Of a stretch of 5,892 nt of DNA, positions 3,431-5,892 are shown piece after piece. The notes beneath the pieces were generated by a model, which was given only the letters and a program-made list of their open reading frames with translations, had not been told where the DNA came from and made no database searches. Origin of the DNA: a virus. Lineage: Duplodnaviria > Heunggongvirae > Uroviricota > Caudoviricetes. Made by a program: the position numbers and the translations under genes. The stretch is taken from the IMG/VR virus record IMGVR_UViG_2529292735_000014, one strand, 5' to 3'. Each line of letters begins with the position of its first letter. Position 1 is the stretch's first letter.

Positions 3431-5791
3431 TTACGGGATTCTGAAATCCCGTTTTTGCCTGTTTTGTGCGCGCTTCATATATCGCTGCGCGTTTTTTTGC
3501 TCATTTACGGGATTCGTGAGTCCCGTTTCTGTCTGTTTTTTGTTTCCACTGGTCAGGCCACCCCGCAGCAGGTCTGCTTTGCGGCGGGCGCGTTCAGTGG
3601 TTTCACTGATTCTCTGTGCGTGCTCTGCGTCGCGGATGGCGCGCAGCATGTCAGAAAGCACGGTAACGGGTGTTTTCATGGTGTTCCGGTCCTGCTGAAG
3701 TGTGGATGCCAGGCGTGTGGCGGCTTCAGGGTCTGATGCCCCCAGCTGTGCCAGATAGCTGGCAACCGGGTTATGGCGGATCTCCGTGCTGCTTACACCG
3801 TGATTACGGCTCAGGCGCTGCCAGAGCTGCGTGATTCGGCTGTCCGGGCGGGTATCCGGTTTGCGTACAATTTCAAATCCCTGCGGTGCAATGATGCTGC
3901 CGTCAACGTACAGACTGCCGCCCCGTAACAGGTGCTGCATTTGTTGTTCACCGATATGCAGGCCGAGAGATTCAGCAGACTCCCGCCATTCTCTAGCGAG
4001 TAATTCGTGGTTATCAGGCAAAGGCCGCGGCTGTTTGCGGCTCTGTGTCCAGCTCTGCATTTCATCACTGCTGTTTTTTGCCTGTTTGTCACGCAGCGAA
4101 CGCATCAGCGCCCGGCGTTCGTGCCGTTTCAGTGAGCGCATCCATTCGTTCACTTCAATGCCGTCAGGAAGCTGCGGCCACGGTGCTGACCGTTCTTCCG
4201 GCTGTTCTGTCCCGTTGTTGTCCGTTTCCTGTACACGGGGACAGTTATTGCCACGAGTCCAAGGGGCGGCAGGGCCGCCCTGAAGGTCAAAACCATTTTC
4301 GCGGGCGCTGTCTTCCGTTTCCGGTTTACGTCTTACCAGTTTCCAGTTATCCGGATGCGTGCACACACGGGAGGATTCCCCGATGAGTGGTGACCAGATC
4401 CCGTAAATCTGTACGCTCTGTTCGCCGTAATCATTCAGCTCATCTGCGAGGTCGTAGGCGGTGCGAATCAGGTAGTCTTTGCGTGGAACAAGTACGCCGC
4501 CCTGTTTTTCAATGTAGGTGGCAAAACACCCGGCATCGGCGGCAGCGAGTACCGCATCCATTGCGTCATCTTTCAGTCGTTGCGGGCCTTCCGGGTTGCG
4601 TGCCATCTGGCTGGCAAGGCGGCGCAGTTCACGCCACACCTGACGGGAGGGGATGCCAAAGAACTGGAACTGGCGGACCCGATGAAGGCGCGCCCAGCCG
4701 ATGGCGCGCTCCACACTCTCGGCCATTGATTTTCCGGTTTCGTGGTCAACGCGTGGCTTGCCCGTTTTCGGGTCGATGCCATCCACGGCGCGGCTGTCCA
4801 GGTTCTTTCCGATGTAGGTGGCGATGTAGCTGGTTGGCGTGCCTTTTGAGCCGTCGACATACTCCGCCTTAAAGCGCGGAGTAATATCATTGTCCAGCTC
4901 GTGGCGGTCTTCCTGAATGGCAATATCGCGGGTGATGGCCACGATGCTGTCGATTTCTTCCGGATGAGCAAAGACCATCATATGCCAGTGCACAGTGCCG
5001 TCATGGTGAGGCTCCACCGTGCGGATGCCATACCAGCGCAGGCCGTCGCGGTTCAGTTTCTTGCGGACCGCCGCAAAAAACGTGTTAACCAGGTAATCGC
5101 TGGAGTCGCGCATGGTGGCCCCGTTCCATTTGGGGTTCGGATGACCGTTCTCCGTTGTTGCGTGGTATTTTGACGGGCAGGTGACAGTCAGAAACACCGC
5201 TTTGTCACCACGGGCTTCGGCCAGAGGTTCCAGCCCCTTCATGGTGGCCATCATTTCTGCCTTACGGTGAACCGGGTTACTTACTCCCGCGTAATACACT
5301 GTCTCGAGATCAATCGTGAACCCGTCTTCATTTTCCAGCATGAAACTTTTCAGGAAATCGCGTGTTTTCTCGCGCTGTGCGCGAAACTCGCTTAACGCGT
5401 CCTGGCTCAGATAGGGCGATGTTTTTCTGGAAACCAGACAGGCGGCGCGGAGTTGTTCTTCTCTCCACTCGCAACGTAACAGCCACAGTTTGCGTTTCCA
5501 CCATTCTGCACAGGTCAGGCGAAGGATTGCGCCCGGCAGCAGCTCCGTGTCCGGTTCGTTCCTCCGGTCTTTGTCTGTTGTCAGTGCGTCATAATGTGGA
5601 GGCATGGCGTGCAGGTGTAACGCCATGCGGGCCAGCATCTGATACGCCTTCAGCGTTACATCCATGGTCAGTTCGCCATCGGTCGCGCCAAAGCCATCGC
5701 AGAGTTTTTCGAAGGTGCTGCTGAACATCGCCGCCGTCATGGTGGCCAGTGTCTGTATCTGGTGTTTGTTGAGCTGCGGCAGGTAAAGCAA
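3431..5791 (-). CDS. A: phage replication initiation protein A (P2 gpA family rolling-circle replication endonuclease); 5' boundary uncertain (TTG 'start', probable upstream continuation or frameshift)
   Basis: Long ORF with the family's hallmark motifs: TVEPHHDGTVHWHMMVF (histidine cluster) and YIATYIGK (two tyrosines three residues apart, as in the P2 A active site YIAKYISK), plus LTVTCPSKYH and AEWWKRKLW, which match P2 A as I recall it. The frame has a stop at 5837-5839 and the first ATG is at 5740. The conserved EWW motif sits about 120 residues closer to the N-terminus than in P2 A, suggesting the true N-terminus is upstream and in another frame. Confidence 0.85.
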   Translation of the reverse strand: MLYLPQLNKHQIQTLATMTAAMFSSTFEKLCDGFGATDGELTMDVTLKAYQMLARMALHLHAMPPHYDALTTDKDRRNEPDTELLPGAILRLTCAEWWKRKLWLLRCEWREEQLRAACLVSRKTSPYLSQDALSEFRAQREKTRDFLKSFMLENEDGFTIDLETVYYAGVSNPVHRKAEMMATMKGLEPLAEARGDKAVFLTVTCPSKYHATTENGHPNPKWNGATMRDSSDYLVNTFFAAVRKKLNRDGLRWYGIRTVEPHHDGTVHWHMMVFAHPEEIDSIVAITRDIAIQEDRHELDNDITPRFKAEYVDGSKGTPTSYIATYIGKNLDSRAVDGIDPKTGKPRVDHETGKSMAESVERAIGWARLHRVRQFQFFGIPSRQVWRELRRLASQMARNPEGPQRLKDDAMDAVLAAADAGCFATYIEKQGGVLVPRKDYLIRTAYDLADELNDYGEQSVQIYGIWSPLIGESSRVCTHPDNWKLVRRKPETEDSARENGFDLQGGPAAPWTRGNNCPRVQETDNNGTEQPEERSAPWPQLPDGIEVNEWMRSLKRHERRALMRSLRDKQAKNSSDEMQSWTQSRKQPRPLPDNHELLAREWRESAESLGLHIGEQQMQHLLRGGSLYVDGSIIAPQGFEIVRKPDTRPDSRITQLWQRLSRNHGVSSTEIRHNPVASYLAQLGASDPEAATRLASTLQQDRNTMKTPVTVLSDMLRAIRDAEHAQRISETTERARRKADLLRGGLTSGNKKQTETGLTNPVNEQKNAQRYMKRAQNRQKRDFRIP
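3433..3545 (+). repeat. tandem pair of ~45-bp direct repeats, each a hairpin plus T-run (+ strand terminator-like), with a weaker GC hairpin plus T7 between them; they overlap the last ~40 codons of gene A and lie just upstream of parM
   Basis: Repeat 1 is TTTACGGGATTCTGAAATCCCGTTTTTGCCTGTTTTG (stem 3433-3440 / 3445-3452, then T5). Repeat 2 is TTTACGGGATTCGTGAGTCCCGTTTCTGTCTGTTTTTTG (stem 3507-3513 / 3520-3526). The middle element pairs 3468-3471 with 3487-3490, followed by T7 at 3492-3498. The two repeats are roughly 85% identical by eye. Confidence 0.5.
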
Positions 5792-5892
5792 ATCGTCCAG
5801 GCGTTCGCGTCCGGCAAGGGGAGCGATAACCCTGTGTCAGCCAGCGGTGAGCGGTGCGCTCCAGACGTTCGAATATTTTGCGCAGGTTTCCG

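What the first reader, a model, noticed from the sequence alone, without database searches (positions are those of the whole stretch)
5738..5892. Gene A 5' end is anomalous: TTG start, upstream in-frame stop and a probable frame switch at a GGGG run
The A ORF in the track starts at a TTG (5791) with a stop in the same frame at 5837-5839. The first ATG (5740) overlaps, as ATGA, the stop of another frame that is open to the window edge. A third frame is also open to the edge and encodes ...NLRKIFERLERTAHRWLTQGYRSP, which resembles the region of P2 A just N-terminal to the part matched by LAGRERLDDLLYLPQ... in the A frame (recalled from memory). In P2 A the EWW motif is near residue 220; here it is near residue 97 of the ORF. 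So the real N-terminus probably lies upstream of the window and the frame is broken near the G run at 5818-5821 (plus strand). The alternative is that A starts at ATG 5740, translationally coupled to a small upstream gene, and lacks the N-terminal region. Together with the portal anomaly this is a second G-run frame problem in an essential phage gene.
Basis: partly seen in the sequence, partly recalled or inferred. Interest (0 to 1): 0.45.

Follow-up and report, generated by a model that had tools for sequence, protein, structure and literature searches.

The report
Homopolymer frameshift in draft-contig replication gene
The odd start of the phage replication gene comes from one extra G in a GGG run that splits an otherwise normal P88/P2-type gene A; it is one of seven single-base run-length errors in this short draft contig, so it is almost certainly a sequencing artefact.

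Summary
The window is a complete 5,892-bp contig (AIHM01000005.1, GCA_000250455.2) of a draft assembly carrying part of a P88-like (Xuanwuvirus, P2-family) prophage. In annotated relatives gene A is a single 940-codon ORF. The contig end falls at codon 137. At 5818-5821 the window has GGGG where all relatives checked have GGG: 124 aligned loci, 0 of 1,161 complete E. coli genomes with the exact 4-G allele, 0 hits in IMG/VR against at least 120 for the 3-G allele, and 0 in JGI metagenomes. TTG 5791 is internal Leu170, ATG 5740 is Met187, and the TGA at 5837-5839 is an out-of-frame reading. Removing one G here and one T at 3492-3498 restores a read-through ORF ending at the P88 stop, with 43 synonymous and 22 non-synonymous codon differences and no nonsense codons. 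The contig carries seven private 1-nt indels, all in mononucleotide runs. That is 1.19/kb against 0.074/kb in 123 relatives, beside only about 8 private substitutions. This points to homopolymer sequencing errors. A real, recent frameshift in a decaying prophage is the minor rival. Ordinary; low interest.

The parts
5820..5891 (-). Gene A codons 137-160 (GNLRKIFERLERTAHRWLTQGYRS) in the authentic upstream frame. The contig end cuts off codons 1-136.
   Evidence: Translation. Identical or near-identical to residues 137-160 of the 940-aa replication endonucleases of P88_4B11, P88 and Shae_phiSM.
5818..5821 (.). GGGG run (CCCC on the coding strand) with one base too many; this is the site of the frame break.
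   Evidence: Relatives have GGG: 3/3, 4/4, 124/124. The exact 4-G allele has 0 hits in IMG/VR, against at least 120 for the 3-G allele. It has 0 hits in metagenomes, and 0 of 1,161 E. coli genomes reach >=99% with a 74-nt probe.
3499..5818 (-). Gene A codons 161-934 in the second frame. It contains the whole Phage_GPA domain, the HUH motif (HWHMMVF) and the YIATY tyrosine pair. TTG 5791 is Leu170 and ATG 5740 is Met187.
   Evidence: Pfam PF05840, 436.9 bits, ORF residues 10-334. P2 gpA alignment. Repair test.
5837..5839 (-). TGA 'in-frame stop' upstream of the TTG. It is an out-of-frame reading of authentic codons (W153-L154-T155 region), not a real stop.
   Evidence: in relatives the same bases are read in the other frame as ...HRWLTQG...
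3492..3498 (.). T7 run (A7 on the coding strand) with one base too many. This second frameshift in gene A replaces the last 5 residues (TRSDI) with a 22-residue tail.
   Evidence: Relatives have T6 (1 of 81 has T7). Removing one T restores ...NEQKTRSDI*, identical to the P88 C-terminus.
3475..3477 (-). Authentic stop codon (TGA) of gene A once the run at 3492-3498 is corrected.
   Evidence: plus direct reading of the sequence around 3475-3500 (context).
686..689 (.). GGGG run one base short (relatives GGGGG). It splits the portal gene into 66..737 and 689..976. This is the same class of defect, in the same contig.
   Evidence: 0 of 43 relatives have G4. Adding a G restores read-through to ...LLDTQPTS*.
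1549..1606 (.). Two further 1-nt run-length insertions (T3->T4 at 1549-1552, C3->C4 at 1603-1606) inside the Ead/Ea22-like gene (1468..2060, minus). They truncate it to 154 aa, against 196 aa in relatives.
   Evidence: L004 annotation.

Best explanation
The window is one whole short contig of a draft E. coli-type WGS assembly. It carries the portal-to-gene-A segment of a P88-like (Xuanwuvirus, P2-family) prophage. Gene A here is the ordinary 940-codon HUH rolling-circle replication endonuclease. Its first 136 codons lie beyond the contig end. At codon 160/161 the deposited sequence has one extra G in a GGG run. That pushes the reading frame out of register and creates three apparent oddities: a TTG 'start' (really Leu170), an upstream in-frame stop, and a third open frame. 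The extra base is most probably a homopolymer-length sequencing or assembly error, one of seven on this contig, so the real phage gene is probably intact. Shown: the position and nature of the indel, its absence everywhere else, the excess of such indels on this contig, and the intactness of the gene apart from them. Inferred: that the cause is technical rather than mutational.
For: 1. Source: the frameshifted 786-aa product is on record on exactly one contig, AIHM01000005.1 of GCA_000250455.2, whose length equals the window.
2. Relatives: megablast hits at 92-99.5% identity in P88-like phages, and the locus is present in 1,336 of 5,426 complete E. coli genomes. All are annotated as one replication endonuclease of 2,823 nt starting 407 nt beyond the window edge.
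3. Indel: a 1-nt insertion in GGG->GGGG at 5818-5821.
4. Allele frequency: 0/124 aligned relatives; 0 IMG/VR hits against at least 120 for the 3-G allele; 0 in metagenomes; 0 of 1,161 E. coli genomes at >=99%.
5. Repair: deleting two bases gives an 804-codon read-through ORF from the contig end to the P88 stop, with 22 aa differences, 43 synonymous to 22 non-synonymous codon differences, and no nonsense codon.
6. Contig-wide pattern: against the colinear prophage L004 there are exactly 7 gaps, all 1 nt and all in mononucleotide runs. The rate is 1.19/kb against 0.074/kb in 123 relatives, 102 of which have none; Poisson P = 4e-7.
7. Coding bodies: 0.76/kb in CDS bodies against 0.028/kb in relatives.
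8. Substitutions: only about 8 private substitutions beside the 7 private indels. Even mismatch-repair-defective E. coli gives about 7 substitutions per small indel, and indel rates rise exponentially with run length (PMC8510543). Here 5 of the 7 hit runs of reference length 2-3.
9. Direction: 5 insertions to 2 deletions, the opposite of the deletional bias usual in bacterial pseudogene decay (own knowledge).
Against: No reads, coverage or platform information could be obtained. The paper I believe announces this assembly series is not held, so the technical origin remains an inference. Prophages do decay, and slippage in runs is a real mutational mechanism. One other relative (L044) also carries four run-length deletions in A, which could be real. 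A rate of 1.2 errors per kb is high even for flow-based platforms unless coverage was low.
Confidence: 0.83

Rival explanations
1. The extra G, and the other run-length changes, are genuine slippage mutations. On this reading the prophage in this strain is defective: gene A is a pseudogene giving a 160-residue N-terminal fragment with a 76-residue out-of-frame tail, the portal gene is also broken, and the element can no longer replicate or package.
For: The frameshift is truly in the deposited sequence. All seven indels lie in mononucleotide runs, where replication slippage occurs (PMC8510543). Two essential genes are hit, as expected for a cryptic prophage. The out-of-frame tail runs to a stop at 5591-5589.
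Against: There are seven private indels beside only about 8 private substitutions, whereas the expected ratio is at least ~7 substitutions per indel even in mutators. Most indels are in runs of 2-3 nt rather than the 27 available runs of 5 or more. There is no nonsense codon, larger deletion or IS, and the substitution pattern is still that of a selected gene at 43:22. Insertions outnumber deletions. None of the seven alleles is shared with the population, apart from one T7 at site 3492, so the decay would have to be extremely recent yet involve seven independent events in 5.9 kb.
Confidence: 0.15
2. Gene A here truly begins at ATG 5740 (or TTG 5791), translationally coupled through ATGA to a small upstream gene, and lacks the N-terminal region.
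For: ATG 5740-5738 overlaps TGA 5739-5737, which closes a 51-codon frame open from the edge.
Against: Every annotated relative has one continuous CDS across this point, with its start 407 nt upstream of the edge and preceded by a 366-nt gene that ends 6 nt before that start. ATG 5740 is Met187, inside the Pfam Phage_GPA domain that begins at residue 179. The '51-codon frame' is simply an alternative frame of the A coding sequence. P2 gpA aligns continuously through the region.
Confidence: 0.01
3. The extra base is bypassed by programmed +1 ribosomal frameshifting or transcriptional slippage at the C4 run, giving full-length A as a regulated minor product.
For: Only that the two halves abut exactly at a mononucleotide run.
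Against: The shift site is absent from all relatives examined, so nothing is conserved. The zero-frame codons are UCC-CCU-UGC, so there is no in-frame CCC-N or CUU-UGA type shift site, and no stop or rare codon to stall on (direct reading). Four bases is far too short for transcriptional slippage (own knowledge). Six other run-length indels on the contig, two of them intergenic, cannot be explained this way.
Confidence: 0.01

Closest known systems
Replication endonuclease (gpA homologue) of Escherichia phage P88 and other Xuanwuvirus members (e.g. YP_009113059.1, YP_009877442.1), Peduoviridae
   Same: 92-99.5% nucleotide identity over the gene. Same neighbours (ParM, partition protein, portal). 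After removing two bases, same length and same stop, with about 97% amino-acid identity.
   Different: The deposited sequence has +1 nt at 5818-5821 and +1 nt at 3492-3498, and the first 136 codons are missing because the contig ends.
Bacteriophage P2 gpA (NP_046795.1, 761 aa), the HUH rolling-circle initiator that nicks ori inside its own gene
   Same: 31% identity over 687 residues, E = 2e-80, colinear across the frameshift point. EWW, HWHMM (HUH) and Y-x3-Y motifs are conserved. Pfam Phage_GPA is matched end to end.
   Different: The P88-type protein is about 180 residues longer (about 47 extra at the N-terminus plus a longer C-terminal region). Nicking activity and ori were not examined here.
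Homopolymer-length errors of flow-based or uncorrected long-read sequencing in draft assemblies
   Same: Single-base gains and losses confined to mononucleotide runs. They are private to one assembly, occur at a density far above related sequences, fall in coding and non-coding DNA alike, and sit on a short contig of a draft WGS project.
   Different: The platform and coverage of this assembly could not be verified with the tools available.

Membership tests
P2 gpA-type replication initiator (Pfam PF05840 Phage_GPA; HUH endonuclease superfamily) | Significant full-length match to the Phage_GPA profile | tested here: met
   436.9 bits against a cut-off of 31.4; profile positions 1-321 of 321; ORF residues 10-334.
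P2 gpA-type replication initiator (Pfam PF05840 Phage_GPA; HUH endonuclease superfamily) | HUH metal-binding motif (His-hydrophobic-His) | tested here: met
   VHWHMMVF in the window ORF aligns with P2 PHWHMMLF.
P2 gpA-type replication initiator (Pfam PF05840 Phage_GPA; HUH endonuclease superfamily) | Pair of catalytic tyrosines spaced by three residues (P2 Y450/Y454; their role is from own knowledge of the P2 literature) | tested here: met
   SYIATYIGKN aligns with P2 GYIAKYISKN.
P2 gpA-type replication initiator (Pfam PF05840 Phage_GPA; HUH endonuclease superfamily) | N-terminal region colinear with gpA, in one reading frame | tested here: not met
   In the deposited sequence the frame breaks at codon 160/161 and codons 1-136 are off the contig. 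The feature is met once one G is removed, and it is met in all relatives.
P2 gpA-type replication initiator (Pfam PF05840 Phage_GPA; HUH endonuclease superfamily) | Site-specific nicking at an ori within gene A and rolling-circle replication | not testable with these tools
   This needs biochemistry. The P2 record annotates the nick site inside A; the equivalent site was not sought here.
Xuanwuvirus (P88-like) prophage, Peduoviridae | Nucleotide similarity and synteny: portal - cargo - partition protein - ParM - replication endonuclease | tested here: met
   83-89% of the window is covered at about 97% identity in P88, Chuche, Shae_phiSM and others. 100% is covered at 97.6-98.0% in E. coli prophages with the same annotated gene order.
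Programmed ribosomal frameshift / recoding site | Frameshift site conserved among homologues | tested here: not met
   0/124 relatives, 0 in IMG/VR, 0 in metagenomes and 0/1,161 E. coli genomes carry the 4-G allele.
Programmed ribosomal frameshift / recoding site | Recognisable slippery codon with a stall signal | tested here: not met
   The zero-frame reads UCC CCU UGC CGG, with no in-frame CCC-N or CUU-UGA and no stop (direct reading).
Homopolymer sequencing/assembly artefact | 1-nt indel within a mononucleotide run, private to one assembly | tested here: met
Homopolymer sequencing/assembly artefact | Several such indels on the same contig, far above the rate in related sequences and not avoiding coding DNA | tested here: met
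   7 in 5.9 kb against 0.074/kb (P = 4e-7). CDS-body rate is 0.76/kb against 0.028/kb.
Homopolymer sequencing/assembly artefact | Reads, or an independent sequence of the same strain, disagree with the consensus at the run | not testable with these tools
   There is no access to reads or assembly metadata, and the literature look-ups failed.

The most novel reading that the evidence does not exclude
The seven run-length changes are real, and this strain carries a freshly inactivated P88-like prophage whose gene A is split at a C4 run. The 160-residue N-terminal fragment and an internally initiated C-terminal nuclease would then be made separately, or rejoined by low-level +1 slippage, for example as a way of holding replication in check.
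Probability: 0.02. Interest if true: 0.3.

Novelty: not a real feature. Interest (0 to 1): 0.05.

Why it matters
It matters only for annotation hygiene. The 786-aa 'TTG-start' A protein, the split portal and the shortened Ead/Ea22 protein from this contig are on record in protein databases as if they were real variants, and they should be treated as frameshift artefacts. Homopolymer-frameshift flags on short contigs of old draft assemblies should be discounted before any biological reading. If the frameshifts were real, the finding would still be an ordinary defective prophage.

Tried and rejected
1. Looked for the 4-G allele in other sequences. There were none in IMG/VR, JGI metagenomes, 5,426 complete E. 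coli genomes or 14 phage records.
2. The first genome-contig scan, with a long variable-gap pattern, found nothing. A shorter pattern gave one true hit (E. albertii, 3-G allele) and six hits in unrelated MAGs. I judged those six to be chance, from my own hand estimate of about 4 expected for 19 specified bases in 596 Gb; I did not inspect them.
3. Tried to establish the strain and sequencing platform of AIHM01 / GCA_000250455.2 from the literature. The accession appears in no held paper. The Hazen et al. 2012 DECA-collection announcement, to which I believe the accession series belongs (from memory, unverified), is not held. So the platform remains unknown.
4. Considered ATG 5740 as a coupled start: rejected.
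5. Considered programmed frameshifting: rejected for lack of conservation and of a slippery motif.
6. Did not use the large protein searches or structure prediction. Near-identical annotated relatives already answer the question.
7. A first script failed only because loci are stored in multi-record files.
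Full report
**1. What is in the sequence**

Gene A lies on the minus strand and runs off the window at 5892.
- The longest ORF is 3431..5791. 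It starts at TTG 5791 and encodes 786 aa.
- The same frame has TGA at 5839-5837.
- A second frame is open from the edge and closes at TGA 5739-5737, which overlaps ATG 5740-5738 as ATGA.
- A third frame is open from the edge. It reads GNLRKIFERLERTAHRWLTQGYRSP... and continues out of frame to a stop at 5591-5589.
- The plus-strand run GGGG is at 5818-5821.

**2. What the region is**

Megablast of the edge region finds P88-like phages (genus Xuanwuvirus, family Peduoviridae, the P2 family) at 92-99.5% identity. It also finds the same locus in 1,336 of 5,426 complete E. coli genomes.
- In every annotated relative fetched, the locus is one 'replication endonuclease' CDS. It is 2,823 nt (940 codons) in P88_4B11, P88, Shae_phiSM and E. 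coli M19. It is 2,766 nt in one prophage with a different 3' end.
- That CDS starts 407 nt beyond the window edge and is preceded by a 366-nt gene that ends 6 nt before its ATG.
- The intact protein reads ...GNLRKIFERLERTDHRWLTQGYRSLAGRERLDDLLYLPQLNKHQ... in one frame.
- So the window edge is codon 137, TTG 5791 is Leu170 and ATG 5740 is Met187. The 'in-frame stop' is an out-of-frame reading of the codons for W153-T155.

Pfam Phage_GPA (PF05840) matches end to end at 436.9 bits and begins at intact residue 179, downstream of the break. P2 gpA aligns at 31% identity over 687 residues (E = 2e-80), continuously across the break. EWW is at P2 residues 215-217 and at P88-type residues 265-267. The HUH motif (HWHMM) and the Y-x3-Y tyrosine pair are conserved.

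**3. The lesion**

A DNA alignment places a single extra base in the run: CCCC on the coding strand, against CCC in the three relatives aligned. The same holds against four longer relatives.

Frequency of the 4-G allele:
- 0 of 124 aligned relatives. Most of these loci were retrieved with the 3-G pattern, so this count is not independent.
- With a 74-nt probe, 0 of 1,161 complete E. coli genomes that carry the locus reach 99% identity. All eight listed hits are 73-nt matches at 98.6%.

**4. The gene is otherwise intact**

Deleting one G at 5818-5821 and one T in the T7 run at 3492-3498 gives a single 804-codon ORF. It runs from the contig end to ...NEQKTRSDI*, the same C-terminus as P88.
- It has 22 amino-acid differences from the closest full-length relative.
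- Codon differences are 43 synonymous to 22 non-synonymous, and there is no nonsense codon.
- Five intact relatives that differ from one another by 1-4% show no net indel in this gene.

**5. The contig-wide pattern**

The window aligns end to end (3..5892) with the prophage of E. coli M19 at 97.7% identity and with exactly seven gaps. Each gap is one base in a mononucleotide run:

| Window site | Change (relatives -> window) | Location |
|---|---|---|
| 686-689 | G5 -> G4 | portal gene |
| 1079-1081 | T2 -> T3 | intergenic |
| 1549-1552 | T3 -> T4 | Ead/Ea22-like gene |
| 1603-1606 | C3 -> C4 | Ead/Ea22-like gene |
| 2092 | GG -> G | intergenic |
| 3492-3498 | T6 -> T7 | 3' end of gene A |
| 5818-5821 | G3 -> G4 | 5' part of gene A |

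- At each site the window allele is absent from the relatives that cover it: 0/43, 0/47, 0/6, 0/6, 0/9 and 0/124. The exception is one T7 among 81 at site 3492.
- Measured against the same reference, 123 relatives carry 31 isolated 1-nt indels in 417 kb (0.074/kb), and 102 of them carry none. The window carries 1.19/kb, the highest of all 124 sequences (Poisson P = 4e-7).
- The relatives' indels are concentrated in intergenic DNA (0.35/kb) or the last 20 codons of genes. The rate in CDS bodies is 0.028/kb, against 0.76/kb in the window.
- The window has only about 8 private substitutions, four of them in a stretch covered by only about 10 relatives.

**6. Source**

The frameshifted 786-aa product is on record on exactly one contig: AIHM01000005.1 of NCBI assembly GCA_000250455.2. 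Its length is 5,892 bp, so it is the window itself, reversed. The 'window edge' is therefore a contig end of a fragmented draft assembly, not a biological boundary. The split portal (244 + 80 aa) and the shortened Ead/Ea22 protein (154 aa) are called as genes in that record.

**7. Interpretation**

Technical homopolymer-length error is the best explanation (confidence about 0.83). Four points support it:
- (a) The indel-to-substitution ratio is about 1:1. Even mismatch-repair-defective E. coli yields about 7 substitutions per small indel (6.02 against 0.85 per CDS), and indel rates rise exponentially with run length (PMC8510543). Here 5 of the 7 indels hit runs of reference length 2-3, although 27 runs of 5 or more are available.
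- (b) There is no other sign of decay: no nonsense codons, no larger deletions, and a substitution pattern typical of a selected gene.
- (c) Insertions outnumber deletions 5 to 2, against the usual deletional bias of bacterial pseudogenes (own knowledge).
- (d) The sequence is a short contig of an early-2010s draft WGS project (the dating by accession series is own knowledge).

The main rival is that these are genuine slippage mutations in a freshly defective prophage (about 0.15). It cannot be excluded without reads. It would need seven independent events in 5.9 kb on a background that has hardly diverged.

Programmed recoding is rejected for three reasons. Nothing is conserved. The zero-frame codons UCC-CCU-UGC offer no known shift site. 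Two of the sister indels are intergenic.

**8. Comparison with the known, and novelty**

The gene is an ordinary member of the P88-type gpA replication endonucleases. It meets the Pfam, HUH and tyrosine-pair criteria. It fails only the 'single reading frame' criterion, and that failure is the defect under discussion. As a biological feature the anomaly is most likely not real. If it were real, it would be a commonplace prophage pseudogene.

**9. What could not be done**

I could not obtain reads, coverage or platform. I believe the accession series belongs to the DECA collection announcement (Hazen et al. 2012), but that paper is not held and the link is unverified. The decisive test is read-level or Sanger confirmation of the run lengths.

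Noticed in passing
window 3492-3498 (and true stop 3475-3477): There is a second frameshift in gene A that the finding did not mention. A T7 run (relatives T6) five codons from the end replaces TRSDI* with a 22-residue tail (NAQRYMKRAQNRQKRDFRIP). The same run is length-variable in a few relatives (1/81 T7, about 2/81 T5), so it may be a recurrent slippage or error hotspot.
   Followed up: yes
window 686-689: The portal gene is split (66..737 and 689..976) by G5->G4. 0 of 43 relatives share this allele, and inserting one G restores read-through to the normal portal C-terminus.
   Followed up: yes
window 1468-2060 (minus strand): The Ead/Ea22-like gene carries two 1-nt insertions (T3->T4 at 1549-1552, C3->C4 at 1603-1606). 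It is called as 154 aa instead of the 196 aa seen in E. coli M19. Only 6-11 relatives cover this variable cargo region.
   Followed up: partly
window 1-5892: The window is a complete contig (AIHM01000005.1, GCA_000250455.2). Both ends lie inside genes (portal and gene A), which suggests the assembler broke at repeats shared with another P2-like prophage or at low coverage.
   Followed up: partly
L044 (IMGVR_UViG_2531839662_000037), gene A: Another relative carries four isolated homopolymer deletions in the body of gene A (0.98/kb). It is the only other sequence of the 124 approaching the window's indel density, so it is probably another error-laden draft or a decayed copy.
   Followed up: no
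window 2123-3398 (minus strand): An actin-like ParM (319 aa, StbA_N/ParM_N) and a 103-codon Plasmid_stab_B-type partner sit directly downstream of gene A and are intact. This plasmid-type partition module is conserved in P88-like prophages. The source record calls the small gene as only 63 aa, although the 103-codon ATG-start ORF is open.
   Followed up: partly
L005 (E. coli O145:H28 12E115) 1816-7299: One relative has a gene A with a different 3' end (922 aa). It carries three unrelated hypothetical genes in place of the ParM/partition/Ead module, showing cargo exchange immediately downstream of A.
   Followed up: no
window 5844-5852: A small cluster of substitutions distinguishes P88 (GACGGACGC) from the window and P88_4B11 (GMTCACCGC) at codons 149-152. 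BLAST renders it as compensating gap pairs, but it is not an indel.
   Followed up: partly
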